A DNA stretch of 64,000 nt from Escherichia phage phiE142, in the sequence record NC_055709.1; one strand, given 5' to 3'. The translations under genes and the position numbers were made by a program. A model generated the notes under the pieces. The model ran no database searches and was not told the origin of the DNA. It saw nothing but the letters and a program-made list of their open reading frames with translations. Shown here piece after piece: positions 5,047 through 56,076 of the stretch (positions are counted from its first letter, which is position 1; each line of letters opens with the position of its first letter).

Positions 5047-5595
5047 TTAACGAGCCCATTTGATGATTTCTGTAATCAAATCATTACGTTCGCTTGCATT
5101 AAATCCTATAACTTTGTTAGCACCATCATGATTAAGTAATTGATACGTTTGGATTTTGTTATGAATTGCAAACTCTTCAAAATGTGAAATGACTGTATTA
5201 AAACCGAATGAAGACAAAGTAATAAGGTCGTCTTCAAAACTTTCAGTCATTTCGTTACGTGTTAAAATAATTGTGAACACGTCATGGTTTTGGCAAAGAC
5301 GAACATAATCCTGCTCATAAACATCAAGAACCGAGTCAGCATCTTGTCGAATACGTCCATAAACCCAGTTACTAATATATCCACGGTCTAACAGATAAAT
5401 CTTAGTAGGGTCTAAATAATTCAACATCGTTTCGAAACAGCCAACTTCATTTCGAGACTTAACATCGAAACGTCCATCAACTGTTCGTTTAGGGAAATCA
5501 ATCTTTACATATCTTTCACTAATTTCCATTATGTCATTAATGAAAGTTGTTTTACCAGCATTATCCGGGCCATCTACTAAAATAATTTTAGCCAT
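5047..5595 (-). CDS. P-loop nucleotide kinase-like protein (thymidylate-kinase-like)
   Basis: Walker A GPDNAGKTT and DRGY motif; sits in the T4 beta-gt slot. Confidence 0.55.
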   Translation of the reverse strand: MAKIILVDGPDNAGKTTFINDIMEISERYVKIDFPKRTVDGRFDVKSRNEVGCFETMLNYLDPTKIYLLDRGYISNWVYGRIRQDADSVLDVYEQDYVRLCQNHDVFTIILTRNEMTESFEDDLITLSSFGFNTVISHFEEFAIHNKIQTYQLLNHDGANKVIGFNASERNDLITEIIKWAR

Positions 5596-5596
5596 T

Positions 5597-7212: not shown

Positions 7213-7254
7213 GTTTACCTCAATACAATTTATTATATACTCAATTCGTAAAGC

Positions 7255-7494
7255 TTATTTGAATTTCTTGACAATGTTGATATAACGTAAAGCTTCAGCA
7301 TCGATACTTCCAAGAACACTATGAAGAAATGCATCAGCGTAGTATTCCAATTGAACAGGTTCTTTAATCACTTTAGCCGCTTTAGTTTCAAAAAGGCCCA
7401 TCAGGGCCTTTTTAAGAATTTGTTCATTAGTGTTCAGTTTCATAGTCAAAATCTCTTCATTAAGTTGGTGGTTAAAAGTTTTTCTAGAAATCAT
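7255..7494 (-). CDS. hypothetical protein, 79 aa
   Basis: track ORF, ATG verified. Confidence 0.4.
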   Translation of the reverse strand: MISRKTFNHQLNEEILTMKLNTNEQILKKALMGLFETKAAKVIKEPVQLEYYADAFLHSVLGSIDAEALRYINIVKKFK

Positions 7495-8651
7495 TCCGGG
7501 TATCTCAAAGCGTCATCAGAGTTAGTTATATCAATAATAGATATAGAGTTTTCTGCTAACCCGTTTTTAGATAATTGACGTTTATAATATCTTTCACAAT
7601 ATGTACACGTCGTCCCGCAGATTTCATTAGCACAATCGAAATCTGGATGTCTGAACCACCTTTTTTCTAAAAAGCCATCTAACAAAGAGGTTTCAATATT
7701 TACTGTATGTGAAAACTCAGTCTCATTTTCAAGAGTGAAAATAGTCTCTAAAGGCTTCCACAGTTCTAACAAATTACCTTCAAACTTTTCAGAAGCGTAT
7801 GCTTCAAGAACTTTCAAAATGTAGTCTGTGCTACCTGTACGTCCTGAAACTTTGAATTGAGTGATACCAATATCATTATAAAGTTTCAAATCTTGAGGAC
7901 GAACAAAACGAGTTCTCAACCAGTTAAATGGGTCTGTATCACGAGCTTTAATACAGTGCTGCATAGGATATCCGTTTAAGGATTTAGCATCATCAGCGGT
8001 AACATCAGTACTATGGAAAATATAGCAAGAGTCACGATAGCTACAATGTGTTGTATACCCTTTACCAGCATTAGAACAGAACTCATTTACAAGAACTTCA
8101 AATATTATATTGTTCTTATTGCAAAACTCTGCTGCACGCTTCAGGAAAGAAACTGAACGGTTCTTATGAATTCCACAGCAGACCTTTTTGATATTATACT
8201 GGTCATGCAAGTATTTGATTTGAGTTACAGCATCGACATGTAGAATTGTTGAAACTTCAATCTCAATGTCTTTATTGACTTCACGAACAATTTCCATAAC
8301 AACAGGGTTAGCGATAGTAATACGCCATACGCCTATTGACCAAAGATACTGAACATAATCCTGAATAGCTTTCTTCTTCCACTCAACTAGTTCTCTTTTT
8401 GAACCAGGATTTATCGTGTTGAGTGTATAGTTAAAGCAAATACCTAATTCGTTACAACGTTTAACGTAATCTTCTAACATCTTTTTGTCAACGTCAGGAA
8501 GCCTAAAATCAGGTCTGGCTGCTACAAAAGCCATTTCTCTTGTAGAGCCATATACTTCGTTTATCAAGCTATTAGGATAAGTTTTATTGAGCTCTACGAT
8601 TTTATCGAGAAGAGCTAAATCAAAATTCGTTCCGATTTTAAAAGTATTCAT
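7491..8651 (-). CDS. Cys-rich 386-aa protein of unknown function (possibly TIM-barrel/peptidase-U32-like); candidate modification enzyme or transferase
   Basis: track start is GTG, trimmed to ATG at 8651; Cys clusters; no confident family assignment. Confidence 0.5.
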   Translation of the reverse strand: MNTFKIGTNFDLALLDKIVELNKTYPNSLINEVYGSTREMAFVAARPDFRLPDVDKKMLEDYVKRCNELGICFNYTLNTINPGSKRELVEWKKKAIQDYVQYLWSIGVWRITIANPVVMEIVREVNKDIEIEVSTILHVDAVTQIKYLHDQYNIKKVCCGIHKNRSVSFLKRAAEFCNKNNIIFEVLVNEFCSNAGKGYTTHCSYRDSCYIFHSTDVTADDAKSLNGYPMQHCIKARDTDPFNWLRTRFVRPQDLKLYNDIGITQFKVSGRTGSTDYILKVLEAYASEKFEGNLLELWKPLETIFTLENETEFSHTVNIETSLLDGFLEKRWFRHPDFDCANEICGTTCTYCERYYKRQLSKNGLAENSISIIDITNSDDALRYPE

Positions 8652-8708
8652 TTTTTTGCATCTCACGTTAATTGATGCGATGGTTTTTTGCAGGTCTTAC
8701 TTAAATTA

Positions 8709-9110
8709 TTATAGATTCGGTTTATATGATTTAAATGTTTCGAATTCGCCTTTATTCATAAGAGCTTTGAATTCGTCAGGACGCATAGCTTTGTCGTCGA
8801 TAATCCAATCATATACTGGTTTATGTGTTAGCAAATTATGGTACTTCAAGCCAATGTTTGCCAAGTTCTGAATCAGACTTGGGAGAATGTCAATTGCTAT
8901 ACGACCAGGACCTACTGACTTCATACCGCGAGCAGTGTAAAGCGTTATGGTATGCCCTGCATCATACAGGGCATTAATGGCAGTCACCATTTCGACGTCC
9001 GGTTTGAAGTTCACGTAATCACGATTGTTATTCCACTCTGTTATACAATCATCGACGTCAAAACAAAGATTAAGCATGTTTTCTACACGGTGCATTAGAT
9101 TCGTTCCCAT
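8709..9110 (-). CDS. small HAD-like phosphatase
   Basis: motifs FDVDD, ITLYTARG, KP, IIDDK consistent with HAD motifs I-IV. Confidence 0.55.
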   Translation of the reverse strand: MGTNLMHRVENMLNLCFDVDDCITEWNNNRDYVNFKPDVEMVTAINALYDAGHTITLYTARGMKSVGPGRIAIDILPSLIQNLANIGLKYHNLLTHKPVYDWIIDDKAMRPDEFKALMNKGEFETFKSYKPNL

Positions 9111-10780
9111 TGATGAGTGATATCGCCACCGATTGGACGATAGGAAACACCAGTTTCTTTATCAGTTAGTACCCATTTACCAGGATTTTTTGTAATCAGA
9201 GTAGCCGTTACAGGTTCTGCTACGTCATAACTAATAGAGCCATCTTGAAGTACACGGCCCATGTTACGTAATTGCTTAGTCAGAAGTTCCATACCTTTAT
9301 AATATGCGGCCACCGCTTTAAGTGGATTATTCTTGAAATAACCACCTAATGCAATCCAGATAATTGCCACTGCCAAATGATGATACTCGTTAAACGAACT
9401 CATCTTTCCATATTTGTAAACTAATGGATTGATGTTAATAGTCACATTACAAGTTGTTTCATCAATAGTAAACTGGCCCCAGGTCGGATTAGCGTTGAAT
9501 TCATCATAACCTGAAACAGCATAAAGCACTTTAGCTTCATCATACAATTTTGGCCCGTAAATCTTGGTTTCGCCAAAATATCCACGAGGGTCGATAAACT
9601 TGACTTCGCCGTTATCAGTAATCATAGTATTACTGAAGTTCGGGTCACCGTGAATAACAGAGTACTGTCCCTGAGAACGGTTATGATAACGAATAAGATG
9701 TTCTAAAGCTTGTTTCAACATTGGCTTCAGACGTCCAATCTTAGTGTAGTTCACGTGTGTGATTTTACCAAATGAATCAATCAATGGCTGAATGCTTTCA
9801 CAACGATCAATAACTTTCGTATAGAACTCTTTAGTGAAATCACGACGAACAGTTTCAGGACTTACAAAATAAGTGTCTGTGCTGAATTTCAGTGCATCTA
9901 AAATTGCATCAACAATTTGTGGACGAGCAAGACTTGATTTGGATTTAATATATTCAAATGCCGGCTTACCTTTAATACGTTCCATTTCAAAATTATTTTC
10001 ATTTACCGAAACTAACTGAGGAACCGAATCTGATTTCACTTTCAAATACCATGAAATCTCATCTTTTTGAAGAGCTCGACCTTGTTCGGTTAACGCGAAT
10101 TTAGTTACAGTTTCTTCGCCAATTTCAACTGCATTAAAACTACGATTAAGTTCACGAACTTCATGAGCTTTTTCAAGTTTAGGCATATCACCTAAATCAA
10201 TTAGATTCATAAGCTCTGATTTATTGAATGCGCTGCTGTAAAGGAATTCTACGAAATCACGTCCTTTGCAGTATTCATGAATTTCCTCATCAGTAGAACC
10301 CATATAGAATTCCCAGTCTTTGAACTGATAAATTCCTACAACATTACCGCCTGTTGCACCTACATTAGTGATATTTTCACCGTCGAAATTATATCGACAT
10401 TCGTCACCCTTAACATAGATTGCGTTAACATTCCAAGACCATGAACCAAAATCAGGAATAATATCGCACCAGTTAACAACTACGTTATGCCTGTCTAAAT
10501 CTTTGTGTAATTTAGCAAGAGCATAAGCAGAACCATACGCTTCATCAACTGTACGAATAGTCACATTGAACCCTTCTTGCTCACAATAAGCTCGAACGGT
10601 TTCAGCAAATTTTGAATGAACTACTACAATAATTTCATCTGCGCCAAGGTCAGAATAAATTGTATACAAATTGCTCAGAATAGTGTCTTGTTTATAGTTA
10701 ACAAGCACCTTAGGAATATGATGCGTTATTGGATACAAACGAGTTGCCAGTCCAGCACCAAGAATAACAGCTTTTTTCAT
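9095..10780 (-). CDS. bifunctional sugar-1-phosphate nucleotidyltransferase (N-terminal) / APH-type anomeric sugar kinase (C-terminal)
   Basis: N-terminus ILGAGLATRL (G-x-G-T-R-L NTP-transferase motif); C-terminus HGDPNFSN...IDPRGYFGE kinase loops. Confidence 0.7.
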   Translation of the reverse strand: MKKAVILGAGLATRLYPITHHIPKVLVNYKQDTILSNLYTIYSDLGADEIIVVVHSKFAETVRAYCEQEGFNVTIRTVDEAYGSAYALAKLHKDLDRHNVVVNWCDIIPDFGSWSWNVNAIYVKGDECRYNFDGENITNVGATGGNVVGIYQFKDWEFYMGSTDEEIHEYCKGRDFVEFLYSSAFNKSELMNLIDLGDMPKLEKAHEVRELNRSFNAVEIGEETVTKFALTEQGRALQKDEISWYLKVKSDSVPQLVSVNENNFEMERIKGKPAFEYIKSKSSLARPQIVDAILDALKFSTDTYFVSPETVRRDFTKEFYTKVIDRCESIQPLIDSFGKITHVNYTKIGRLKPMLKQALEHLIRYHNRSQGQYSVIHGDPNFSNTMITDNGEVKFIDPRGYFGETKIYGPKLYDEAKVLYAVSGYDEFNANPTWGQFTIDETTCNVTININPLVYKYGKMSSFNEYHHLAVAIIWIALGGYFKNNPLKAVAAYYKGMELLTKQLRNMGRVLQDGSISYDVAEPVTATLITKNPGKWVLTDKETGVSYRPIGGDITHQWERI

Positions 10781-10821
10781 GTTGTGGTCCTCATTGGTAA
10801 GTAGGAGTATTGTACACTATT

Positions 10822-10965
10822 CTAGTTAAAGCATTCATACTTTGCTTGTAGTCCAATCATAATCCATCCAATTACAAGTGTTGGAATCATTACCGGAGCC
10901 GTTAAGCTCCAGTAGATAGTCATGACAAGCATCAATAGTAAAAGTCCTATTGTTATTGCTTTCAT
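10822..10965 (-). CDS. small hydrophobic membrane peptide, 47 aa, translationally coupled (ATGA overlap) to upstream SIS gene
   Basis: manual translation MKAITIGLLLLMLVM...; below track threshold. Confidence 0.35.
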   Translation of the reverse strand: MKAITIGLLLLMLVMTIYWSLTAPVMIPTLVIGWIMIGLQAKYECFN

Positions 10966-11597
10966 TGTTCGCCTCGTAACATGGCACCTAGTGCACCGCC
11001 TGGATGGAACTTAAGGAAATCATTAGAGGTAAATCCACGTTCAGACGAAAGGTTGATAGCAAACGTATCGATAAGCGCTAACAACAATGTAGTGGACATT
11101 GTCGGAGCTAAAGAGTTCTCGTCAACTTCTACCGCGATACCAGTACAGAACGTATAATCAAAAAGAGCTTCGTATTCTTGTGGAATGTCAGGGTTACAAT
11201 GTAACAGAATCTGTTTAACCTGAGGACGAATCATACGAAGATGTTTAGCAACACCTATCATTTCTTCAGTCTTACCAGAACGACTAATATGAATCAACAC
11301 ATCATTAGGCGCAATGAATCCTGCATCACCGTGAGAATAATGCCCAGTGTTCAAGTACATACTCGGGATACCGAGTGAAGCAAATGTCTCAGAAGCTTTA
11401 GTTGCGATATTAGCGTTCTTACCAACACCTGTAATAATTACACGACTTTCATAATTACTCAGTCCTGGGCGTCGAAGAGTTTCTAGAATAGCATTATAAC
11501 GAGCAGGGTTTTGACTAATTACTTTGGCCATAGCGGCCAAAGAAGAAGCTTGTTTTATGATTGCGTCAATAGCGATAGTAATAGGAGTAGTTTTCAT
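10962..11597 (-). CDS. SIS-domain sugar-phosphate isomerase, KdsD/arabinose-5-phosphate isomerase-like
   Basis: ITGVGKNANIATKASETFASLGIP...SHGDAG closely resembles the KdsD SIS core. Confidence 0.75.
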   Translation of the reverse strand: MKTTPITIAIDAIIKQASSLAAMAKVISQNPARYNAILETLRRPGLSNYESRVIITGVGKNANIATKASETFASLGIPSMYLNTGHYSHGDAGFIAPNDVLIHISRSGKTEEMIGVAKHLRMIRPQVKQILLHCNPDIPQEYEALFDYTFCTGIAVEVDENSLAPTMSTTLLLALIDTFAINLSSERGFTSNDFLKFHPGGALGAMLRGEQ

Positions 11598-11637
11598 ATT
11601 TCTCTCATTTAATTAGTTTACCGTCCATGGCATTATA

Positions 11638-40225: not shown

Positions 40226-40434
40226 AACCATTTGACCTGCATGCAATATTCTTCGACATGCTTTTTACGACCTTTCTTATCAATAAAGGTATATTCCATA
40301 AAGCGTCCATGATAACGACGTTCAACATCGTGAGGGGTGTTAATAGGACACTTAGTCTGACGAATTTCTTCCCATTCACGAATAATAACTGCTTTATTCT
40401 TTGGGTCATACGGGTGAGGATAATGCACATTCAT
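40222..40434 (-). CDS. hypothetical protein
   Basis: trimmed to ATG at 40434; competing overlapping frame 40194-40430 rejected. Confidence 0.35.
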   Translation of the reverse strand: MNVHYPHPYDPKNKAVIIREWEEIRQTKCPINTPHDVERRYHGRFMEYTFIDKKGRKKHVEEYCMQVKWL

Positions 40435-40898
40435 AACAATGGTTCCCAATCAACAATCACAATTTCTAGTTTAGTGGAATATGTATCAAGAATTTCTTCA
40501 ATGATATCCCAGTTTCCACCACCTATACCTGCTCCAATTCTTGGCATGTAAATCACAGGCTTTGTTATCTTATTTTTTCCGAATTCATTTAATTCTATTA
40601 TACAATTCATTAAAGCAGAGTACTCAAAATTAGGTCCCGGCTCAAACTGAGTATAAAGATTAAAGCAATAAGCTTTATGAGTCTTAAAATATTTTTCATA
40701 AACCGAATAAGTCCCAAGTTTAGACTCGTCTCCGAATTCAGTTTGAAGTTTATCGGCTTCCAGAATTTTTGGATAAGCCTTTGCCAATTGACCTGCTACA
40801 CCGGCGCCCATTGTATGAAAACAATTGCACCCATGAGCAATATTATTACCTTTAGAAAACAGGGCGACAATATCGCCCTTGATATAGTTTTTAATCAC
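40431..40898 (-). CDS. macrodomain protein (ADP-ribose binding/hydrolase fold)
   Basis: HGCNCFHTMGAGVAGQ and PRIGAGIGGGNW motifs; GTG start. Confidence 0.65.
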   Translation of the reverse strand: MIKNYIKGDIVALFSKGNNIAHGCNCFHTMGAGVAGQLAKAYPKILEADKLQTEFGDESKLGTYSVYEKYFKTHKAYCFNLYTQFEPGPNFEYSALMNCIIELNEFGKNKITKPVIYMPRIGAGIGGGNWDIIEEILDTYSTKLEIVIVDWEPLL

Positions 40899-42305: not shown

Positions 42306-42521
42306 TTATTGATAAAATGGAGTTAAAGCCCAAGATTCTTTAGATACTATATTAGCGAAATGCCTCATCTCTTCGATTTGGCGACGACGCTGGTCAGCAT
42401 AATCTTCTTCGCCTTCTTCCTTACAATCTTCAAGGTCTTCTTCAAGATACTTTAAGTATTCACTACAAATTTTGTTAACCTTTTCTTGGAAGTCCAACAA
42501 CCCAGTAATAGTAGAAGCCAT
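42306..42521 (-). CDS. hypothetical acidic protein, 71 aa
   Basis: track ORF, ATG verified. Confidence 0.35.
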   Translation of the reverse strand: MASTITGLLDFQEKVNKICSEYLKYLEEDLEDCKEEGEEDYADQRRRQIEEMRHFANIVSKESWALTPFYQ

Positions 42522-42787
42522 TAGTATTTTTCCTCAGGACGAAATACTGCACGACAGGCCCACATGCTGGCTTCTTTTAGATGTTGCTTAGCGTACTTAA
42601 GAGCCTGCACTGCATCCATATCTTCTTTGGTTTGATGCTCTGTTTCATTTTCTTTCAAGATATAGGCTTCTTCAATCAGAGCATCAAACATCAATCCAAG
42701 ACGGACTTCTGCATCTTTAATAGCGTTCACTTTACCTATTTTATCGTCGGTATGTGGCTTGTAGCCTTTAATATCTTCAATCGACAT
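42521..42787 (-). CDS. hypothetical protein
   Basis: internal ATG with GAGGA SD; longer track ORF overlaps neighbour. Confidence 0.3.
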   Translation of the reverse strand: MSIEDIKGYKPHTDDKIGKVNAIKDAEVRLGLMFDALIEEAYILKENETEHQTKEDMDAVQALKYAKQHLKEASMWACRAVFRPEEKY

Positions 42788-43001
42788 AAGGAATTTCCTC
42801 ATCGGTGGCAAGGTCATATTCGACCAATTGGATAGGCTCATTAATACCATATCCACGTACAATGATATCAGTTGTCGGATAGTTTCCAGTAATATCACCC
42901 ATTCTAAATGCTTCAGTGAATGATTGCTCGCCTGAGCAACTAAACCAGGCGGCAAAACATTTTAAAACATCTTCAGACCCTTCTATAATCAATTTAGCCA
43001 T
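42777..43001 (-). CDS. hypothetical protein, 74 aa
   Basis: track ORF, ATG verified. Confidence 0.35.
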   Translation of the reverse strand: MAKLIIEGSEDVLKCFAAWFSCSGEQSFTEAFRMGDITGNYPTTDIIVRGYGINEPIQLVEYDLATDEEIPYVD

Positions 43002-43363
43002 TATAGACTCTCAGTAAAGGTACGAGCGATAACGTCGCGCTGCTGTTCCGGAGTCAGAGAGTTAAAGCGAACTGCATAACCGGATACACGGATGGTCAGC
43101 TGCGGATATTTTTCCGGATGCTTAACTGCATCTTCCAGAGTTTCACGACGCAGAACGTTAACGTTCAGGTGTTGACCACCTTCAATTTTAACTTTAGGTT
43201 GATGTTCAATTTCAATTTCACGGGCATTCAAACCGTAGAAAATTTCCGGGTCTACAATAGCGTCTTCTTTAAAAGTCTTAGAGACAATAATCCGGGCTTG
43301 AGTACCGTCTTCAAAATAAATAGTGCCTTTGTGTGTGCCTTCAAGAATTTGATATGCTTTCAT
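43001..43363 (-). CDS. GrcA/YfiD-like autonomous glycyl radical cofactor
   Basis: C-terminal [11 protein letters not shown]...[11 protein letters not shown] glycyl-radical motif; 120 aa. Confidence 0.75.
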
Positions 43364-45773: not shown

Positions 45774-46055
45774 CTATTTTTCTGAAGCGCCTGAAATATA
45801 TTTTTCAAGACGTTGTTTCATTAACGAGCCGTTCTTAGCGATTTCTTCCGGTTTATCGCACATACGCAGCAGTGCTTCAAGCTTAACGATATCACTGGTG
45901 CGCTCAAATTTGCGAGTATCTATCTTACTGGCAAGTTCAGAAATACGTGCTAATAGACTTTCAGCTTCAACTAAAGCTGCACCTAGCTTAGTTGCAAATG
46001 TGTCAGTAGCTTCATTAAGAATAGATTCTGATAAAAATTCATTATATGTTTTCAT
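45774..46055 (-). CDS. internal-protein-like small protein with capsid-targeting sequence
   Basis: N-terminus [11 protein letters not shown] after trimming to ATG at 46055. Confidence 0.5.
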
Positions 46056-46540
46056 ATATACGCTTTCCAAGTTCCTGTTTTAAATGTTGAGATTACGCGT
46101 TTCGCGCGATTAGGCGTCTGACGATACCATTTAGATTGGGCTAGATTTACTGCCGCTTCATCCCAACGTTTCTGTTGAAGCATACGAAGAGAATTAGTAA
46201 AACCGGCGACGCCTGATACGCCCATTTGGAAGACCATATTGACCAATGCACATCGACGAACCGCATCTAAAGAATCATATACCGGTTTAAGTTTAGCATT
46301 ACCCAAGATTCCGCGAATGGCTTTATCGACGTCTTCATTAAATAACTTTTCAGCCTCATCAAGGGTAATTGTACCGTTGCATTTACGACCGATCATCCTG
46401 TCAAGTTCAGCTTTAGCTACGGCTAAAGACGGGTTCTTTGTTACTAAATGGCCTATGCCAATCGTCCAAAAGCCTTCGGTGTCTTTGTATAAAGTCAGTC
46501 TAAGACCTTCGTCATTACGAAGCATTTCAAATATATTCAT
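46052..46540 (-). CDS. e: e lysozyme (endolysin, T4L family)
   Basis: [23 protein letters not shown]...catalytic E11/D20/T26 context; 162 aa. Confidence 0.95.
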
Positions 46541-46574
46541 AATACCTCCTACGTTTATAGGAGGTATTTATTAC

Positions 46575-47033
46575 TTATAGGATGGTAGTGAGCACCTTAT
46601 ATAATGATTTGCCCATTACATATTCCCATTGAGAAGGTTTAATTAAAGCGAATGCATCAAATTCAGGAATCTGTCGTCCGTCTGGGAATGTATGATAGGA
46701 ATTACAAACACTGTTTCTGAATTGCTCGTGCTCTACAGGGATGGTATATTGGAATAGATGAATATTCTTATTGTCTGAGTAATGATGTTCGCCTAGGTCT
46801 TTCAGGAAGGCAGGGTCATATTGTGTAAACCCAGTTTCTTCTTCGCATTCACGAATAGCGGCTTCAATAGGAGATTCACCTGGCTCGACACGGCCTTTAG
46901 GAATATCCCACCGATGAGCTAATGCACCTTTAGGACGAGAACCAGTTACACGGCCCATGAATAACTCTTTATCTTTTGTCATGAAGATAATACCGGCTGA
47001 TAGTTCTTTCACTTTATTTTTCTTACTCATCAT
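46575..47033 (-). CDS. nudE: NudE Nudix hydrolase
   Basis: Nudix box GRVEPGESPIEAAIRECEEETG. Confidence 0.8.
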   Translation of the reverse strand: MMSKKNKVKELSAGIIFMTKDKELFMGRVTGSRPKGALAHRWDIPKGRVEPGESPIEAAIRECEEETGFTQYDPAFLKDLGEHHYSDNKNIHLFQYTIPVEHEQFRNSVCNSYHTFPDGRQIPEFDAFALIKPSQWEYVMGKSLYKVLTTIL

Positions 47034-47274
47034 CTCGGTCCCATGATTTGGCCATTAATTCGGACATAAATTCTTCAATGCGCGTTTCTTTAGATGGACT
47101 TTCACTATTAGAAACCGCAAGTTTGTAATCTGCAATAGGACAGAACATATCAAGGTCCATATTAAGATCGTCTTTGATTTTTTCTTCTGACACATCTTTA
47201 TCATATGTGTACAGATAACTATCACATGATTCTGATTTAATGTAAATTGCTATACTCATCTCAAATTCCTGCAT
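47023..47274 (-). CDS. hypothetical acidic protein, 83 aa
   Basis: track ORF, ATG verified. Confidence 0.35.
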   Translation of the reverse strand: MQEFEMSIAIYIKSESCDSYLYTYDKDVSEEKIKDDLNMDLDMFCPIADYKLAVSNSESPSKETRIEEFMSELMAKSWDRDDE

Positions 47275-47747
47275 TCGGTAATAAAACGTTCAACTTCATT
47301 ATTCTTGGCCTTTATCTTGTCTTTACGTTCCTGTAAACTACTTTTAACAAGATTAATAATGATGCCTATAGTACCTCCACCAATAATACCACCAATAATA
47401 CTTACGATAGTAGATGCTAATAATATAGCGATAATATCTGGTATGGCAAAGGCACTTACTTTAGTACTAAAAAACCATACCGACGGTACAAATATAATCC
47501 ATCCTGTTATCCATTGGCACTTATTGAAAAACTTTTCAAGCTCAGCTTGAGTTGTTCTTATTACTTCATCGATAGGTTGATATCCATTAATGTATCTGTT
47601 CACGATAATACCTGCTGGCTGGTCGATTTTAAATTCTTGGCAAATACGTTTCACTAAGTAGGATGGACATCCTGTCCAATCTACTGAGTAGTACGAAATA
47701 CCTTCATTACCGTCGTCTATATTAGACCAATATGTTTTGTTAATCAT
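47256..47747 (-). CDS. membrane protein, 163 aa
   Basis: TM helices with Gly-rich segment. Confidence 0.4.
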   Translation of the reverse strand: MINKTYWSNIDDGNEGISYYSVDWTGCPSYLVKRICQEFKIDQPAGIIVNRYINGYQPIDEVIRTTQAELEKFFNKCQWITGWIIFVPSVWFFSTKVSAFAIPDIIAILLASTIVSIIGGIIGGGTIGIIINLVKSSLQERKDKIKAKNNEVERFITECRNLR

Positions 47748-48433
47748 TACCAGCCTTCCATAGGGAATTCCAGATAAACTTGAGCATTGACACGAATTTC
47801 ATTGGTAATCTTTTTAACTCGGTCTGTATTACGAGATACACGTCCGAACCAACGCCATCCATTACTAATTGCACGAGATCCAGTGTGCCATGTTTGCCAA
47901 TCAAACTGAAGAAGAGTACGGTCTGGAGCTTCCCATTTCTCTAGTTCACCTTTTTCAATTTTTTCGAGGACTTCTTTGTGCCACTGGCGATAGATAAGTT
48001 CGCCATCAGGAATCTGACTGAACTCTGCAGTTCCTGTTGCAAAATGAGTAGGACACACGTCAGCGTTAACAAGGCCAAGAATATGTTCAGACAAATAGCG
48101 AGGATTGTCATAGTCAGGTTGTCCTGCAGTAATAAAATGTTGACCAACTGGAATATCCGGGCGTGGTACATCGTCATGGTGATAACCTGGGATAGCAGGG
48201 TACCAACCAGGCATCAGCATGTGGACTCGTGAATCAAATACTACATCCGAGCCTTTCCAATCGTCAGGGAGATTTTGGATAAAGCTACGAGTAATTGGAC
48301 CGCCATTATTAAAAGCAAAATTCAAATCGCAGTTAAAGAACATAGGCTCGTTTTTAATCTGGTCATTTTTAATCTCATGAGCAAAACCACCTACTGCACG
48401 AGCTTGACTATTAAACACTTTAGAACTATTCAT
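47747..48433 (-). CDS. 2OG-Fe(II) oxygenase-like protein
   Basis: candidate H-x-D (GYHHDD) ... H ... R-x-S arrangement; by-eye only. Confidence 0.4.
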   Translation of the reverse strand: MNSSKVFNSQARAVGGFAHEIKNDQIKNEPMFFNCDLNFAFNNGGPITRSFIQNLPDDWKGSDVVFDSRVHMLMPGWYPAIPGYHHDDVPRPDIPVGQHFITAGQPDYDNPRYLSEHILGLVNADVCPTHFATGTAEFSQIPDGELIYRQWHKEVLEKIEKGELEKWEAPDRTLLQFDWQTWHTGSRAISNGWRWFGRVSRNTDRVKKITNEIRVNAQVYLEFPMEGW

Positions 48434-48434
48434 A

Positions 48435-48740
48435 TTATTTTCCTCGACATTCTTTAATGAAATTTTCTAGATTGGTAGATTCAATAGCTTTTTTACGAGC
48501 TTCTGCATGTTCTTCTTCAGACAATTTACATTTATAATTAACCCAGACGTTATGGTCAAAACTAGTCGTGGCATATAATAACAAAGCCCCGACGAATAAT
48601 AAAAATGGTGATAAGAATACAAAACCAGGAGCACCATCCATATCGTAAGCCTTTTGTAATACTGCAACAGAAAGAGCTGCGTAAAAAGGTGATGCAAATA
48701 TTGTAAAAAGACCAATTCGGTTGGTTTCGCCTAATTTCAT
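48435..48740 (-). CDS. membrane protein, 101 aa
   Basis: two TM helices; PeSL upstream. Confidence 0.4.
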   Translation of the reverse strand: MKLGETNRIGLFTIFASPFYAALSVAVLQKAYDMDGAPGFVFLSPFLLFVGALLLYATTSFDHNVWVNYKCKLSEEEHAEARKKAIESTNLENFIKECRGK

Positions 48741-48758
48741 AATATTCTCCTCATGTTT

Positions 48759-48796
48759 TAATAGGACTACTATAACATAGTCCTATAATTGTGTAA
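48759..48796 (-). promoter_or_regulatory. PeSL cassette (ATAGGACTA/TAGTCCTAT arms)
   Basis: identical core to 57541 and 57870 copies. Confidence 0.55.
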
Positions 48797-48810
48797 ACAG
48801 TTTTGCGAAA

Positions 48811-49767
48811 TTATTTGAAAGGTTTTACCATATGGAAATTTTGTTTGAAACGTTTGACGTAATCATCATGTCCTAAGCTTTTATACATACTTACTACTTT
48901 GCTGTAGTTTTCCCAGGCGTATTCACGAAACCAACCGGAGGTGATGCTTGTACAGACTTTTTCCAATGCCATCATAAAACTATCACGTGGATGGATTTTA
49001 AAGTCATTAGGAATCTGAGAACGTTCTAATGCTAGTACACATGATTCTTCGTATACACCGGCCAATTTGACCATTTCTGGTAATGATTCGAACTTCTCGC
49101 GTGAGGTCATGACTTCAGAACCATCTTTCATATAAAATGTATACGCTGGACGGTCCGTTAGTGCAATGGCTTCGTGAATAGTATCATGATCGTATGTGTA
49201 GATATCATCTTTAAAGAATGCGCTTTTAGAAGTGTCAAGAACTGGGTGAGCATAGTTCAAGGTTTCTTTCTGGCGTTTCAGCATAATTTCAGTAAGTTCA
49301 TCGTTCAGTTTAACACCTTTACCACGAAGATACTGAATATGGTTCATAGTCTTTAAAAAGAATGGATTATTTTTCTTGAAACGATGAGACATCTTAATTG
49401 CAAGACACATCTCAGGAGTTGCCCAGTAAAACCCGTTCAAACGGTCTTTAGTCAAATTTTTCTTGGCGTATTTTAAAAGGTCATAAGAAGACGTGAAATC
49501 TTCAGGAGTGAGTTCACCGACTAATTCACGGACATTAGTGATTGCCGGAACAATATATGCTTCAAAATGAGTTTCGCGTCCATTATGGAAGCATTTGAAA
49601 ACTTGGACATCAGGGTTATCTTGGTGAACATATACGCCCATCATTTGATTTTTGAATGCATTCCAAGAACCTTGGTCCGCAATAAAGTCCCAATCACTGT
49701 TTTTGATAGCGCTAGAATCAATAAGGCCGTGATAGTGAAGTGCACGAGAACCAATAACTAACATCAT
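48811..49767 (-). CDS. hypothetical 318-aa protein, possible nucleotidyltransferase fold
   Basis: N-terminal LVIGSRALHYHG...DWDFIAD (G-S...D-x-D) pattern; weak. Confidence 0.4.
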   Translation of the reverse strand: MMLVIGSRALHYHGLIDSSAIKNSDWDFIADQGSWNAFKNQMMGVYVHQDNPDVQVFKCFHNGRETHFEAYIVPAITNVRELVGELTPEDFTSSYDLLKYAKKNLTKDRLNGFYWATPEMCLAIKMSHRFKKNNPFFLKTMNHIQYLRGKGVKLNDELTEIMLKRQKETLNYAHPVLDTSKSAFFKDDIYTYDHDTIHEAIALTDRPAYTFYMKDGSEVMTSREKFESLPEMVKLAGVYEESCVLALERSQIPNDFKIHPRDSFMMALEKVCTSITSGWFREYAWENYSKVVSMYKSLGHDDYVKRFKQNFHMVKPFK

Positions 49768-49795
49768 AATATTTTCCTCTGATTAATTCATTAAC

Positions 49796-50047
49796 TTAAA
49801 TTTCACGACATGCGATATTATATTCATCCCAGAGGTCGTCATGTGAAGCCTCTACCAATGGAACGATTGTACCGTTTATGTCTTCATTATAAGGACAAAT
49901 TGTACAGTGCGCATCTTCGAATCGTATGCCTTTGTGTTCAGATTTTTTATAACGCATATCGAATATCTTTGCAAACTTTTCACGAGTAATAGTTTTAGCA
50001 ACTACTTCGGTTCCGATACTTTCGTAATAAATCATTGTAGACTCCAT
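49796..50047 (-). CDS. hypothetical protein, 83 aa
   Basis: track ORF, ATG verified. Confidence 0.35.
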   Translation of the reverse strand: MESTMIYYESIGTEVVAKTITREKFAKIFDMRYKKSEHKGIRFEDAHCTICPYNEDINGTIVPLVEASHDDLWDEYNIACREI

Positions 50048-50054
50048 TTAATTT

Positions 50055-50093
50055 GATAGGACTACTATAACATAGCCCTATCTTGTTGTAAAC
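50055..50093 (-). promoter_or_regulatory. PeSL cassette (imperfect AGGACT/AGGGCT arms)
   Basis: GTTTAC + TGTTATAGT. Confidence 0.5.
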
Positions 50094-50097
50094 TGTT

Positions 50098-50295
50098 TTA
50101 GCAAGAATAACTAGACGATACCCAGCCTTGAACAGTAATACTATTATTTGATAACGAGATTGCGTCCTGGAGATTAAGACCTGCGTTATCTTCAATCCAC
50201 AATGTAACTTCTTCACGCTCTTCGGTTGCAATCTGGAACAGGTTTTCTAGAGCAGCTACTGCGGTACGTACAGCACAATCTAATTCACGAGACAT
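50098..50295 (-). CDS. small protein, paralog family member (C-terminus ...GWVSSSYSC)
   Basis: tandem paralogs share C-terminal W-V-S/A-S-S-x-x-C tail. Confidence 0.45.
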   Translation of the reverse strand: MSRELDCAVRTAVAALENLFQIATEEREEVTLWIEDNAGLNLQDAISLSNNSITVQGWVSSSYSC

Positions 50296-50304
50296 ATGGT
50301 TTCC

Positions 50305-50577
50305 TTAGCAAGTGTGAGAAGATGCAACCCAACCGCCATCTTCAAGGCTCAAGTTGTAGTCGTATTGGTAAACATCGGCCCATTCAGCATAACCGTTTTT
50401 TGTACAACGTTCAAGATCGGCTTTAAGATGTCCGGGTGAATGATAGGTTCCACCCATACCATAAGCTGGATACAAGTCGAATGTTGTGTTTTGTTTATTA
50501 GCAATTTCTTTGGCAGCCTCAATAGCTGCATAGATTTTTGCTACGGCTTCAGCCAGTTCGGTTTGTTCTTTAGACAT
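50305..50577 (-). CDS. small protein, paralog family member (C-terminus ...GWVASSHTC)
   Basis: as above. Confidence 0.45.
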   Translation of the reverse strand: MSKEQTELAEAVAKIYAAIEAAKEIANKQNTTFDLYPAYGMGGTYHSPGHLKADLERCTKNGYAEWADVYQYDYNLSLEDGGWVASSHTC

Positions 50578-50586
50578 AATGATTCC

Positions 50587-50892
50587 TTAGCACAATGCAG
50601 AAGACGAAACCCAAGCACCTTCAGTAATAACATAACCATTACCTTCACGCTTAACATCACCACCATTATTTTCAATTTCATCTTTCATCCACTGGGATAC
50701 AATTTCACCCTTAGGATAATAAGTACGACCGCTACCATAATCACCTACAGAAAACGATACGGCGTATTGGTCTGCGATCTTTGTTGCTTCTTCTTCGATA
50801 CGTTCAGCTTGATTCAGAAGTTTATAAATTGCATCTGAAGCGGATTTGGCATCATTAAACTCTGGTACTTTAATTTCAATAATCTTACTCAT
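50587..50892 (-). CDS. small protein, paralog family member (C-terminus ...AWVSSSALC)
   Basis: as above. Confidence 0.45.
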   Translation of the reverse strand: MSKIIEIKVPEFNDAKSASDAIYKLLNQAERIEEEATKIADQYAVSFSVGDYGSGRTYYPKGEIVSQWMKDEIENNGGDVKREGNGYVITEGAWVSSSALC

Positions 50893-50990
50893 TTTCTACA
50901 TTCCTTAATAAAGTTTTCGATTGTTTCATTTTCACGTCTAGCTAGGAGTTCATTATAACTAATCATTTGAGAAGCGTAAACAGCATAAAT

Positions 50991-51383
50991 TCAGTTCAGG
51001 CTTTTGCATCTTATTTCCTTAACGAATTCCATAGCTTCTTCATATTCATACTTTTTAACAGCTTCATCATACTGAGCTTGGGCTTTTGCGCACTGAACTT
51101 TCCATTCTCTTAATCGGGCTCTGTGATGACGGCCTTGGTGCCAATATCCTACCCAATTAATAGGCATTAATAAAAACGGTACAATAAGTGGTGCGACGAA
51201 CATTAATGAAAACGCTGCATCAGACGATATAACTTTATTGGAATCTAAAATAGCTCCTATAATCATAAAGATTAAAAATGCTAAAGCTAAAATAGGACCA
51301 AATAGTACTTCATTTGGGATTAATTTACGCTTGTATTCATACGCCCAGGGCTTAATTGGCATGTATAGGGTTGGCTTTGACAT
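50991..51383 (-). CDS. membrane protein
   Basis: TM helices; start uncertain (track start is TTG). Confidence 0.35.
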   Translation of the reverse strand: MSKPTLYMPIKPWAYEYKRKLIPNEVLFGPILALAFLIFMIIGAILDSNKVISSDAAFSLMFVAPLIVPFLLMPINWVGYWHQGRHHRARLREWKVQCAKAQAQYDEAVKKYEYEEAMEFVKEIRCKSLN

Positions 51384-51948
51384 ATTCTCTACATTCCATA
51401 ATAAATTGCTCAAGGATTAAATTGTTAGTGAAATTAGGACTAACAACCATAGTTTCATAAAGCGCATCAATAGCACTTAAAGCATCAACTCTTTTAAGCA
51501 AAGGCTTGCCTTCATACATAGTTTCAGAATCGACGATTAACGTAAAGTAATATTTTTTATTATCGACTAGAACTTCTGTATCGATATAAAACATATTAGA
51601 CCTCAGAAGCTTATCTCTAAAACCATAATAATCTTCAGAGCGTTCGCTGATATATTCCAATTCAGTGTTTAAACAACAAACAGACCATGTAGGAGCAACG
51701 AAATCAGTGAATCTAATATCATGATCTGCAACTAGTTTAGCAATAGCTCCGATATCATGAATCATAATACCTGGGGCTAATAAAGATTTTCGGTTATTTG
51801 CATATTCAGTTGTCTCATAAGAAGACGACCAATACCATTTACGTCCAGTTGCAACATATCGTAATGAATCAACTAAAGACGTAGGTGGATTTACCTTATC
51901 TCGGAACTCTTCGAACATTGAGTCAATATCATTATTTTGGTTTCGCAT
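51352..51948 (-). CDS. hypothetical protein
   Basis: trimmed to ATG with AAGGAG SD. Confidence 0.4.
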   Translation of the reverse strand: MRNQNNDIDSMFEEFRDKVNPPTSLVDSLRYVATGRKWYWSSSYETTEYANNRKSLLAPGIMIHDIGAIAKLVADHDIRFTDFVAPTWSVCCLNTELEYISERSEDYYGFRDKLLRSNMFYIDTEVLVDNKKYYFTLIVDSETMYEGKPLLKRVDALSAIDALYETMVVSPNFTNNLILEQFIMECREYVKANPIHAN

Positions 51949-51997
51949 GTTAACTCCTTTATTATCCAAAAGGAGGACCGGAGTCCTCCGTATTATT

Positions 51998-55244: not shown

Positions 55245-55295
55245 AAGCCTTGCGGCAGCCTTGTCGGGGTTCCACCTGCTAAGGCAAGTGTTTGT

Positions 55296-55386
55296 ACGAA
55301 ACGCCGGGATTCGAACCCGGTTATTAAGCAGTTGACGCTACTCAATATTTTTAAAGGCCATATCTCGACCATATCCGAACGTTCCG
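55296..55386 (-). other. tRNA-like fragment: T-arm plus acceptor 3' half without a canonical cloverleaf (possible tRNA remnant or stable-RNA 3' domain)
   Basis: minus-strand CCGGGTTCGAATCCCGG T-arm followed by 7-nt acceptor-like strand; no foldable D/anticodon arms. Confidence 0.3.
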
Positions 55387-55556
55387 TCAAAAACGCTACT
55401 CGGCTTACGGCAAAGATATTTCCTCGAATCGATAATTCTGTGCGCCGTTTCTGCTGTGATGTAAGGGGATATTAACGAATCATAAAGATTTATTAAGACC
55501 AGTCCTTACTCAGGGAACATCAGTCCGACGACTTGCCGGTAGCGACCCGGCTTCTC

Positions 55557-55919: not shown

Positions 55920-55996
<77 letters not shown>

Positions 55997-56002
55997 AATA
56001 TA

Positions 56003-56076
56003 TGACCCAGACCAGATTCGAACTGGTAACCTTTCCCTTATGAGGGGACTGCTGCTAACCGTTGAGCTACAGGGCC
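56003..56076 (-). tRNA. probable tRNA with CAU anticodon (Met or Ile2-type)
   Basis: T-arm ACCAG-TTCGAAT-CTGGT, anticodon loop CTCATAA; acceptor has one mismatch and D-arm is atypical. Confidence 0.5.

What the first reader, a model, noticed from the sequence alone, without database searches (positions are those of the whole stretch)
47747..49767. 2OG-Fe(II)-oxygenase-like protein and a second nucleotidyltransferase-like protein downstream of nudE
47747-48433 shows a possible H-x-D ... H ... R-x-S arrangement typical of 2-oxoglutarate/Fe(II) dioxygenases. Together with 48811-49767 (G-S...D-x-D N-terminus) these lie in an expanded nudE-to-tRNA region that is larger here (about 8 kb) than I recall for T4. 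A dioxygenase in an hmC-modifying phage could act on nucleic acid bases (AlkB/TET-like) or on a small molecule.
Basis: inference. Interest (0 to 1): 0.45.

Follow-up and report, generated by a model that had tools for sequence, protein, structure and literature searches.

The report
Uncharacterised phage dioxygenase and nucleotidyltransferase genes
Two real, conserved but never-studied early genes of an RB69-like phage encode an iron/2-oxoglutarate dioxygenase and a polymerase-beta-type nucleotidyltransferase; they are not part of the phage's DNA-modification pathway, and their substrates are unknown.

Summary
Both ORFs exist exactly where stated, on the minus strand. They are the homologues of RB69 ORF132c (228 aa) and ORF134c (318 aa).

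The DNA-base idea is not supported. The phage is RB69-type, whose arabinosyl-5-hydroxycytosine pathway is assigned to other genes. The dioxygenase also occurs in actinophages, prophages and a phage-plasmid.

Two things stand out:
- The dioxygenase is far more conserved than core replication proteins (82% versus 26-53% against Aeromonas phages, with synonymous sites saturated).
- In about a fifth of unrelated loci it sits beside NAD+ salvage genes (Nampt) or RNA-repair genes (RtcB, RNA ligase).

Substrates remain unknown. I rate this a new member of known kinds, of moderate interest.

The parts
47747..48433 (-). Gene for a 228-aa stand-alone Fe(II)/2OG dioxygenase-like protein (RB69ORF132c homologue, phrog_1843).
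48173..48181 (-). Codons for H85-H86-D87, the proposed proximal iron ligands (HxD).
   Evidence: H85 and D87 are invariant in 85 diverse homologues. Residue positions checked.
47840..47887 (-). Codons for H183 (proposed distal iron ligand), R194 (proposed 2OG C5-carboxylate binder, His+11) and R198 (His+15).
   Evidence: All three are invariant. H183 lies in strand 182-185 and R194/R198 in strand 192-201 of the model.
48811..49767 (-). Gene for a 318-aa Pol-beta-fold nucleotidyltransferase-like protein (RB69ORF134c homologue): DUF7277 at the N-terminus and DUF7275 at the C-terminus.
49561..49752 (-). Codons spanning G6-S7, D25-x-D27 and E69, the proposed nucleotidyltransferase catalytic motif.
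   Evidence: G6, S7, D25, D27 and E69 are invariant in 59 homologues. The strand-GS-helix-strand(DxD) topology is present in the model.
48435..48740 (-). 101-aa predicted membrane protein (RB69ORF133c homologue). Its stop codon is 1 nt from the dioxygenase start codon.
   Evidence: sequence TAA-T-ATG.
48769..48797 (-). T4-early-type promoter-like site (GTTTACA, 17 nt, TATAGT, with TG) in the gap between the nucleotidyltransferase gene and ORF133c.
   Evidence: This is a consensus match only. The number of such matches in the region is not above shuffled sequence.
50064..50092 (-). Second early-promoter-like site (TTTACA, 17 nt, TATAGT, with TG), upstream of ORF135c and the nucleotidyltransferase gene.
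   Evidence: Consensus match only.
49796..50047 (-). 83-aa ORF135c homologue, the first gene of the putative unit that contains the nucleotidyltransferase.
47256..47747 (-). e.2 membrane protein. Its start codon overlaps the dioxygenase stop codon by 1 nt.
47023..47274 (-). ORF130c homologue. It overlaps e.2 on one side and nudE on the other.
46575..47033 (-). nudE Nudix hydrolase, the last gene of the tightly packed string ORF133c-dioxygenase-e.2-ORF130c-nudE.
   Evidence: Pfam NUDIX E 1.3e-15. Annotation.

Best explanation
These are two separate, catalytically intact accessory enzymes. Relative to T4 they lie in an insertion between e.2 and e.3 in RB69-like and many other T4-like phages, and they are probably expressed early.

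(1) The dioxygenase. The 228-aa protein is a stand-alone Fe(II)/2-oxoglutarate dioxygenase of the PhyH/EctD-like structural type.
- Inferred chemistry: H85, D87 and H183 hold Fe(II). R194 anchors the C5 carboxylate of 2OG. O2 activation gives an Fe(IV)-oxo species that hydroxylates a C-H bond of the substrate.
- The second invariant arginine (R198, His+15) matches, from memory, the spacing of the TauD arginine that binds its anionic substrate. With the many other invariant Arg, Tyr and Trp residues, this suggests an anionic, possibly nucleotide-like, substrate.
- It appears to be transcribed from a T4-early-type promoter as part of a packed string: ORF133c, dioxygenase, e.2, ORF130c, nudE.

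(2) The nucleotidyltransferase. The 318-aa protein is a Pol-beta-superfamily nucleotidyltransferase. D25, D27 and E69 would bind two metal ions and transfer an NMP from an NTP to a hydroxyl group. Its large, highly conserved helical C-terminal domain (DUF7275) presumably holds the acceptor.

Neither enzyme belongs to the cytosine-modification pathway.

Tentative role (context only). Both belong to the phage's host-takeover or counter-defence repertoire and act on RNA or on NAD+/ADP-ribose-type molecules. Shown here: genes, folds, invariant catalytic residues, gene packing, distribution and selection. Inferred: cofactor use, early expression and every statement about substrate.
For: Genes and identity.

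Dioxygenase, fold and residues:
- AF2 pLDDT 95.3, pTM 0.91.
- H85, D87, H183, R194 and R198 are invariant down to 33% identity.
- H183 and R194 lie on consecutive strands of the model, 11 residues apart.

Dioxygenase, selection:
- 82% amino-acid identity to Aeromonas phage homologues. In the same pair of genomes gp45 is 28%, gp44 42%, gp62 26%, RegA 53% and the nucleotidyltransferase 46%.
- Synonymous sites are saturated, with dN 0.15-0.30. This points to strong purifying selection, not recent transfer.

Nucleotidyltransferase:
- pLDDT 93.6.
- G6, S7, D25, D27 and E69 are invariant, as are more than 40 positions in DUF7275.

Expression: promoter-like sites fall in the only two intergenic gaps, and the coding sequences touch or overlap.

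Not part of DNA modification: PMC13326640 assigns the pathway to gp3 and gp45-55. The family occurs in actinophages, a prophage and a phage-plasmid.

Context theme:
- Conserved order nucleotidyltransferase, dioxygenase, (e.2), nudE in 24 enterobacterial T4-like loci. The nucleotidyltransferase-dioxygenase pair is also kept in Aeromonas phages, without nudE.
- In 63 other loci, a Nampt-family gene lies within 3 kb in 7. In 4 of these the Nampt stop overlaps the dioxygenase start by 4 nt. The Nampt gene is paired with a PRS-like gene in L040 and L073, and with an NMNAT-Nudix gene in L051, L069, L075, L082 and L085.
- RtcB, an RNA ligase or a HAD_SAK RNA-repair domain lies within 3 kb in L006, L007, L009, L057, L069, L085 and L088.
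- DUF4326, SLOG or Macro genes lie nearby in L007, L010, L059, L069 and L082.
Against: - I could not superpose coordinates, so ligand geometry is inferred from motif spacing and strand positions only.
- About 78% of non-T4-like dioxygenase loci show no NAD or RNA-repair neighbour.
- None of 80 sampled viral Nampt loci carries the dioxygenase within 10 kb. It is therefore not a core part of NAD+ reconstitution, and the association could simply reflect accessory genes clustering in islands.
- The loci are not phylogenetically independent.
- The promoter calls are consensus matches, and their number is not above shuffled sequence.
- The two genes appear to be in different transcription units. Each family occurs widely without the other.
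Confidence: 0.68

Rival explanations
1. The dioxygenase acts on nucleic-acid bases. It would be an AlkB-like oxidative repair enzyme or a TET/JBP-like modifier of phage DNA, or of RNA/tRNA.
For: - The gene often lies near RNA-repair genes and tRNA clusters, which would suit an RNA-directed AlkB-like repair role.
- The many invariant Arg and aromatic residues fit a nucleotide substrate.
Against: - No TET/JBP structure is in the top 60, and AlkB-type hits rank below PhyH-type small-molecule hydroxylases.
- No hit to any Pfam model, including the AlkB-type 2OG-FeII_Oxy_2, among 85 members.
- The arginines follow the distal His at +11 and +15. From memory, AlkB has them at +17 and +23.
- The RB69 cytosine pathway is accounted for without this gene.
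- The family occurs in phages and elements with very different DNA chemistry.
Confidence: 0.12
2. The dioxygenase is a protein hydroxylase that modifies a universally conserved host protein, such as a translation factor, a ribosomal protein or RNA polymerase, as part of host takeover.
For: - Conservation along the whole protein is extreme across phages of Escherichia, Aeromonas and Klebsiella and in a prophage, with saturated synonymous sites. This fits a large, invariant macromolecular partner.
- The gene is usually a stand-alone early-region gene without a metabolic partner.
Against: - The best structural matches are small-molecule enzymes.
- There is no extra substrate-docking domain in a 228-aa protein.
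- Where neighbours are informative, they are nucleotide, NAD or RNA enzymes, not translation factors.
Confidence: 0.15
3. The two genes form a two-enzyme pathway on one substrate. For example, the nucleotidyltransferase nucleotidylates a molecule that the dioxygenase hydroxylates, or the reverse.
For: - The order nucleotidyltransferase then dioxygenase, on the same strand and 17-2000 bp apart, is kept in 27 T4-like loci. These include Aeromonas phages, where the flanking genes differ and nudE is absent.
- Both families are present in Gordonia phage ClubL.
- A different Pol-X-like nucleotidyltransferase lies next to the dioxygenase in L082, and within 2.2 kb in L070.
Against: - None of 63 non-T4-like dioxygenase loci has the DUF7275 gene within 10 kb.
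- The DUF7275 family is broader (733 versus 471 phage records) and is mostly found without the dioxygenase, including in giant viruses.
- The two proteins evolve at very different rates (46% versus 82% identity).
- A promoter-like site separates them.
- In ClubL they are about 44 kb apart.
- One relative (L012) keeps ORF133c and the dioxygenase but has no nucleotidyltransferase hit.
Confidence: 0.12
4. The nucleotidyltransferase is a MenT/AbiEii-like tRNA-modifying enzyme or an RlaP-like RNA-end repair enzyme. It would add nucleotides to tRNA 3' ends, either to shut off host translation or to repair tRNAs trimmed by host ribotoxins.
For: - The best structural matches are the tRNA-nucleotidylating toxins MenT1, MenT3 (TglT) and MenT4.
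- The architecture, an N-terminal nucleotidyltransferase domain plus a C-terminal helical domain, is the one described for RlaP, which adds 1-2 NMP to damaged RNA 3' ends. T4 NrdC.11 is an RlaP (PMC12776372).
- In Aeromonas phages the gene lies about 3.5 kb from rnlA.
- The invariant K125, R129, K139 and nearly invariant D143 downstream of the core recall, from memory, the K..R..KD..D motif of DUF1814 proteins.
Against: - No sequence match to PF08843 (AbiEii), PF10127 (RlaP) or any other nucleotidyltransferase Pfam model in 59 members, and none to PADLOC models.
- DUF7275 has no recognisable structural counterpart.
Confidence: 0.3

Closest known systems
PhyH-type Fe(II)/2OG hydroxylases (ectoine hydroxylase EctD, EasH, PhyH-family proline hydroxylase, phytanoyl-CoA hydroxylase)
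   Different: Sequence identity is only 8-15%. PF05721 is not matched: 1 of 85 members at E 0.068. The phage protein is shorter (228 aa versus 250-310) and has a long, invariant loop (residues 74-115) around the HxD. Its substrate is unknown.
TauD / clavaminate-synthase-like 2OG oxygenases
AlkB family and TET/JBP nucleic-acid dioxygenases
   Different: No TET/JBP match in the top 60. No AlkB-type HMM match. The arginine spacing differs. There is no evidence of a DNA or RNA substrate.
MenT/AbiEii (DUF1814) nucleotidyltransferase toxins and minimal antibiotic nucleotidyltransferases (ANT(2'')-Ia, LnuA)
   Different: Identity is 7-12%, and only the N-terminal half aligns. No Pfam or PADLOC match. 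The gene is phage-borne, not part of a toxin-antitoxin pair. The C-terminal DUF7275 is a distinct, virus-centred domain also found in giant viruses.
RlaP (PF10127), RNA-ligase-associated Pol-beta nucleotidyltransferase, including T4 NrdC.11
   Same: Same two-domain layout, a nucleotidyltransferase domain plus a helical domain. It is also phage-encoded and found near RNA-repair genes (PMC12776372).
   Different: No PF10127 match in any of 59 members. No RlaP or NrdC.11 relative appears among the significant BFVD matches, which are all DUF7275 proteins or unnamed. Activity is untested.
Phage NAD+ reconstitution pathways NARP1 (Adps + Namat) and NARP2 (Nampt + Nmnat)
   Same: In 7 loci the dioxygenase gene lies within 3 kb of the Nampt-family gene of such a cluster, and in 4 of them the genes overlap. 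Both cluster types are represented. In this window it shares a packed gene string with the Nudix hydrolase NudE.
   Different: Neither the NARP preprint (10.1101/2024.02.11.579819) nor the survey PMC9503650 mentions any dioxygenase. None of 80 sampled Nampt loci carries it. This window has no Nampt gene near it.

Membership tests
Fe(II)/2-oxoglutarate-dependent dioxygenase superfamily | Double-stranded beta-helix (jelly-roll) core fold | tested here: met
Fe(II)/2-oxoglutarate-dependent dioxygenase superfamily | HxD/E...H iron-binding facial triad, conserved across the family | tested here: met
   H85, D87 and H183 are invariant in 85 homologues down to 33% identity. Their three-dimensional arrangement could not be checked.
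Fe(II)/2-oxoglutarate-dependent dioxygenase superfamily | Basic residue binding the 2OG C5 carboxylate on the strand after the distal His | tested here: met
   R194 (His+11) is invariant and lies on the next strand, 192-201. The assignment is by spacing only.
Fe(II)/2-oxoglutarate-dependent dioxygenase superfamily | Fe(II)- and 2OG-dependent oxidation with succinate and CO2 release | not testable with these tools
   Needs an enzyme assay.
Pfam 2OG-oxygenase families (2OG-FeII_Oxy, 2OG-FeII_Oxy_2/AlkB, PhyH, TauD and others) | Score above the family's gathering threshold | tested here: not met
   No Pfam family for the window protein at E<=1. Among 85 members there is one PhyH hit at E 0.068 and three AraC_binding (cupin) hits at E>=0.003. 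NCBIfam and PADLOC also gave nothing.
TET/JBP 5-methylpyrimidine dioxygenases | Structural or sequence similarity to the TET/JBP catalytic domain | tested here: not met
AlkB family | AlkB-type HMM match and nucleotide-recognition lid | tested here: not met
Pol-beta nucleotidyltransferase superfamily | Nucleotidyltransferase fold with hG[GS], then [DE]h[DE]h on the next strand, plus a third carboxylate | tested here: met
Pol-beta nucleotidyltransferase superfamily | NMP transfer from NTP to an acceptor hydroxyl | not testable with these tools
   Needs an enzyme assay.
MenT/AbiEii (DUF1814, PF08843) toxins | HMM match, plus a toxin-antitoxin gene pair | tested here: not met
   No Pfam or PADLOC match. 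The neighbours are phage early genes with no AbiEi-like antitoxin. The resemblance is at fold level only.
RlaP (PF10127) | HMM match to PF10127 | tested here: not met
   No match in 59 members at E<=1.
Pfam DUF7277 + DUF7275 | Scores above the gathering threshold for both domains | tested here: met
   DUF7277 97.3 bits and DUF7275 265.9 bits, cut-off 27 for each. 58-59 of 59 homologues match both.

The most novel reading that the evidence does not exclude
The 228-aa protein could be a previously unrecognised oxidative counter-defence enzyme working in the NAD+/ADP-ribose and RNA-damage conflict. It might destroy an NAD+-derived immune signal, or oxidatively remove an ADP-ribosyl or alkyl group from RNA or DNA. 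That would explain three observations: its translational coupling to Nampt/Namat genes of both NARP types, its adjacency to RtcB and RNA ligases in unrelated phages, and its exceptional sequence conservation. The DUF7275 nucleotidyltransferase could be a second, independent RNA-end-directed enzyme of the same repertoire.
Probability: 0.15. Interest if true: 0.8.

Novelty: new member of a known kind. Interest (0 to 1): 0.42.

Why it matters
Both proteins belong to large virus-centred families with no characterised member. The dioxygenase family has 471 phage records, about 1,300 clusters at 90% identity and no Pfam model. DUF7275 has 733 phage records and also occurs in giant viruses.

The dioxygenase is under stronger constraint than the sliding clamp or the clamp loader. 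For a non-essential accessory gene this is unusual. It implies a precise and important interaction with something conserved from Aeromonas to Escherichia.

Its repeated placement beside NAD+-reconstitution and RNA-repair genes gives a concrete, testable lead in a very active field, phage counter-defence. If the lead is wrong, these are still ordinary uncharacterised accessory enzymes, and the DNA-modification idea can be set aside.

Tried and rejected
Searches that found nothing:
- Pfam, NCBIfam and PADLOC scans of the dioxygenase, and of all 85 aligned members.
- Profile searches of both families against PDB sequences: only chance hits at E>1.
- Pfam scan of all 59 nucleotidyltransferase homologues for known nucleotidyltransferase families: only the two DUFs.
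- Literature searches for DUF7275, DUF7277, ORF132c/134c, phrog_1843 and phage dioxygenases in anti-defence: no paper on either family.

- BFVD returned only family members.
- One paper search and one in-paper search failed on syntax.

Ideas considered and rejected:
- The dioxygenase makes 5-hydroxycytosine. Rejected because a ThyA homologue does this, and because the family occurs in unrelated phages.
- The dioxygenase is a core NARP component. Rejected because none of 80 sampled Nampt loci has it. That scan was cut at 600 stretches and did not even recover the seven original loci, so it is only a sample.
- Vs.1 is the Macro-domain neighbour. Wrong: the Macro protein in the window is the Tk.4 homologue at 40431-40898.
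- The Pol-X-like neighbour in L082 is related to the DUF7277/7275 protein. No: hhalign probability 0.1%.
- The ARAGORN 'tRNA-Stop' at 55294-55387 is a real tRNA. Rfam does not support it.
Full report
WHAT THE WINDOW IS
The region 46000-51000 is 96-98% identical to Mosigvirus genomes: RB69 96.0%, phiC120 98.2%. All genes in this part of the window run on the minus strand. From right to left on the plus strand, which is the direction of transcription, the order is: ORF135c homologue (49796-50047), the 318-aa ORF (48811-49767, RB69ORF134c), a 101-aa membrane ORF (48435-48740, ORF133c), the 228-aa ORF (47747-48433, ORF132c), e.2, ORF130c, nudE (46575-47033) and e. The two genes of the finding are 98% and 97% identical to their RB69 counterparts.

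CHECKING THE OBSERVATION
The coordinates are exact. The 228-aa protein contains H85-H86-D87, H183 and R198-V-S200. The 318-aa protein starts MMLVIGS and has G6-S7...D25-W-D27.

As bare patterns these are weak. The dioxygenase pattern occurs in 4% of shuffles of the same protein, and an N-terminal GS...DxD occurs in 0.6%. Conservation and structure carry the weight, as described below.

The nudE-to-tRNA interval is 8.9 kb to the first Rfam-supported tRNA, or 8.3 kb to an ARAGORN-only call. In T4 it is 3.7 kb. RB69ORF130c, 132c-139c and 145c-150c have no T4 counterpart, and the two genes sit between e.2 and e.3. In the transcriptional sense, however, the genes are upstream of nudE.

THE 228-AA PROTEIN
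It matches phrog_1843 (unknown function) and nothing in Pfam, NCBIfam or PADLOC.
- A word-indexed search found 1,294 relatives.
- An exhaustive HMMER search of 1.84 billion representatives found 624 clusters at 50% identity.
- In an 85-sequence alignment reaching 33% identity, the only invariant columns are G83, H85, D87, H183, R194 and R198.
- Profile searches against PDB sequences gave only chance hits.
- Scanning all 85 members against Pfam gave one PhyH hit at E 0.068 and three cupin (AraC_binding) hits.

H183 lies in strand 182-185, and R194 and R198 lie in the following strand 192-201. The His-to-Arg spacing of 11 is what I recall for PhyH and EctD. The pair at +11 and +15 is what I recall for TauD, where the second arginine binds the anionic substrate. 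That comparison is from memory and was not tested here.

I conclude that this is a catalytically intact Fe/2OG dioxygenase of a family that no curated model covers. I could not inspect coordinates, so the geometry of the metal site is inferred.

THE 318-AA PROTEIN
It matches Pfam DUF7277 (residues 2-101, E 8.7e-28), DUF7275 (120-305, E 2.7e-79) and phrog_2141. A homologue search found 2,214 relatives.

In 59 diverse homologues G6, S7, D25, D27 and E69 are invariant. So are more than 40 positions of the C-terminal domain, including K125, H128, K139, R165, H174, H194, D195, H198, E240-E241, E248-R249 and S274-R281.

No known nucleotidyltransferase Pfam family, RlaP or AbiEii is matched by any of the 59 members, and PADLOC gives nothing. 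BFVD returns only DUF7275 proteins, including two from giant viruses, Sylvanvirus and Satyrvirus.

This is a Pol-beta-fold nucleotidyltransferase with an intact catalytic triad and a distinctive, highly constrained acceptor-side domain. The acceptor is unknown.

GENE ORGANISATION
The only sizeable intergenic gaps are upstream of ORF135c and between the nucleotidyltransferase gene and ORF133c. Each gap holds a match to the T4 early promoter type, (G)TTTACA, 17 nt, TATAGT, preceded by TG. From the second promoter onward the genes are packed:
- The ORF133c stop is 1 nt from the dioxygenase ATG.
- The dioxygenase stop overlaps the e.2 start by 1 nt.
- e.2 overlaps ORF130c by 19 nt, and ORF130c overlaps nudE by 11 nt.

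The dioxygenase and the Nudix hydrolase NudE therefore probably share a transcript, while the nucleotidyltransferase is in the preceding unit. The promoter calls are consensus matches only, and their number in the region is not above shuffled sequence.

NOT PART OF DNA MODIFICATION
The window is collinear with RB69 at 97% identity across RB69ORF045c-055c. A 2026 paper shows that RB69 DNA carries mono- and poly-arabinosylated 5-hydroxycytosine. A ThyA homologue (gp48) makes 5-hydroxy-dCMP. UDP-arabinose comes from gp51, gp52:53 and gp55, and transfer is by gp46:47 and gp3. ORF132c and ORF134c are not in the scheme (PMC13326640).

The dioxygenase family is found in 471 phage records. These include Aeromonas, Klebsiella, Enterobacter and Yersinia T4-like phages, Certrevirus, and Gordonia and Mycobacterium phages. 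It is also found at the edge of a prophage in a 611-kb bacterial contig and in a Klebsiella contig with Rep3, gp32 and RecA genes that looks like a phage-plasmid. A role tied to one DNA chemistry is unlikely.

AN UNUSUAL DEGREE OF CONSERVATION
Against Aeromonas T4-like phages the dioxygenase is 82% identical. In the same genome pair gp45 is 28%, gp44 42%, gp62 26%, RegA 53%, the N-terminus of gp43 37%, e.6 50% and the nucleotidyltransferase 46%. Synonymous divergence is saturated, while dN is 0.15-0.30. This is long-term purifying selection, not recent transfer. Homologues in unrelated metagenomic phages and in the prophage are still about 71% identical.

GENOMIC CONTEXT
I collected 80 viral loci with a profile of the family, plus loci from GenBank phages and metagenomes.

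In T4-like phages:
- In enterobacterial phages the order nucleotidyltransferase, small ORFs, dioxygenase, e.2, nudE, e is conserved.
- In Aeromonas phages the nucleotidyltransferase-dioxygenase pair persists 1-2 kb apart. nudE is absent there, and rnlA lies a few kilobases upstream.

In the other 63 loci the DUF7275 gene is never within 10 kb. Two themes recur in these loci.

First theme, NAD+ salvage:
- A Nampt-family gene (PF04095 + PF18127) lies within 3 kb in seven loci.
- In L040, L051, L075 and L082 its stop codon overlaps the dioxygenase start by 4 nt.
- In L040 and L073 it is paired with a ribose-phosphate-pyrophosphokinase-like gene, the NARP1 layout.
- In L051, L069, L075, L082 and L085 it is paired with an NMNAT-Nudix fusion, the NARP2 layout.
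- The seven Nampt proteins are only 29-42% identical to one another.

Second theme, RNA repair:
- RtcB is immediately upstream in Gordonia phage ClubL, 1 kb away in Yvonnetastic and 1.9 kb away in Mycobacterium phage GardenSalsa, next to a 13-tRNA cluster.
- An RNA ligase (phrog_548) lies within 3 kb in L069, L057 and L088.
- A HAD_SAK RNA-repair domain gene is adjacent in L085.
- Metallophosphoesterase, SLOG (YAcAr), DUF4326 and Macro genes also recur.

Overall, about 14 of 63 loci (22%) carry one of these within about 3 kb.

Published figures put NARP1 plus NARP2 in about 5% of phage genomes. Seven of 63 within 3 kb is well above a naive expectation of roughly 0.5% or less. However, the loci are not independent, accessory genes cluster in islands, and most loci show nothing recognisable. 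In the reverse direction, none of 80 sampled Nampt loci (74 of them with NMNAT-Nudix) has the dioxygenase within 10 kb. The dioxygenase is therefore at most an occasional add-on, not a pathway component. That scan was truncated at 600 stretches and is only a sample.

Neither the NARP preprint nor Aravind's survey of viral NAD+-ADPr systems mentions a dioxygenase. Neighbours of the nucleotidyltransferase in other phages also include Sir2, SLOG and ADP-ribosyltransferase genes. The window itself carries Acb2 (vs.4, 42521-42787) and a Macro-domain protein (tk.4, 40431-40898) a few kilobases away.

INTERPRETATION
What is shown:
- Two real genes.
- Confident fold assignments.
- Invariant catalytic residues.
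- Tight packing of the dioxygenase gene with nudE.
- A wide, virus-centred distribution.
- Very strong purifying selection on the dioxygenase.

What is inferred: Fe/2OG and NTP chemistry, early expression, and a role in the phage-host conflict over RNA integrity and NAD+/ADP-ribose.

The dioxygenase substrate could be a nucleotide-type small molecule, RNA or a conserved host protein. I cannot discriminate between these with the available tools. The two enzymes are more likely independent than a coupled pathway.

VERDICT
The fold interpretation is supported, and the DNA-base hypothesis is not. These are new, uncharacterised members of known enzyme superfamilies. Interest is moderate. It is raised by the conservation anomaly and the Nampt/RtcB adjacency, and limited by the absence of any direct evidence for function.

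Noticed in passing
window 975-22612, especially about 5050-11600: The window is collinear with RB69 at 97% identity across RB69ORF045c-055c. A 2026 paper assigns that cluster to arabinosyl-5-hydroxycytosine synthesis. This phage probably does not carry glucosyl-hmC, and the 'first' nucleotidyltransferase implied by the finding's title may be the sugar-1-phosphate nucleotidyltransferase ORF052c/053c.
   Followed up: partly
window 55294-55387 (-): ARAGORN calls a 94-nt 'tRNA-Stop' with anticodon TTA. Rfam's tRNA model supports only the Arg and Met tRNAs at 55923-56076 at gathering score. The call falls inside the RB69ORF150c homologue and is probably a false positive.
   Followed up: partly
window 42521-42787 (-), 40431-40898 (-), 43001-43363 (-): Other conflict-related genes lie nearby: the vs.4 homologue has the Acb2/Tad1 hairpin domain (E 6e-18), the tk.4 homologue is a Macro-domain protein (E 1.5e-6) and the vs.6 homologue has a glycyl-radical domain (E 2e-18).
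   Followed up: no
window 48435-48740 and 47256-47747 (-): The small membrane proteins flanking the dioxygenase gene (ORF133c and e.2) share a C-terminal motif, E-x-F-I-x-E-C-R (BLASTP E 0.002). ORF133c also weakly matches the C-terminal end of the e.2 family, phrog_2203. A similar FIMECRE occurs in the 205-aa ORF at 51352-51969.
   Followed up: partly
L008 2342-4354, also L040, L050, L057, L069: A 660-700-aa protein family (phrog_1735, no Pfam hit) recurs 1.6-4 kb upstream of the dioxygenase gene in five non-T4-like loci. Its function is unknown.
   Followed up: no
L012 (IMG/VR copy of Escherichia phage Av-05, 120,938 bp), 9694-10684: This close relative keeps ORF133c and the dioxygenase (97-99% identical) but has no nucleotidyltransferase hit within 10 kb upstream. 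This is either a natural deletion or an assembly artefact in a short record.
   Followed up: no
BFVD entries A0A3G5AJ90 (Sylvanvirus) and A0A3G5AE53 (Satyrvirus): DUF7275-domain proteins of 508 and 571 aa occur in giant viruses of eukaryotes and match the phage model at TM 0.69-0.72 over the query. The family therefore spans phages and nucleocytoplasmic large DNA viruses.
   Followed up: no
window 46541-46568: An 11-bp-stem hairpin lies in the 34-nt gap between nudE and e. The terminator scan called it on the plus strand, opposite to the genes. It may mark the end of the early unit or be an RNA-processing or regulatory element upstream of the lysozyme gene.
   Followed up: no
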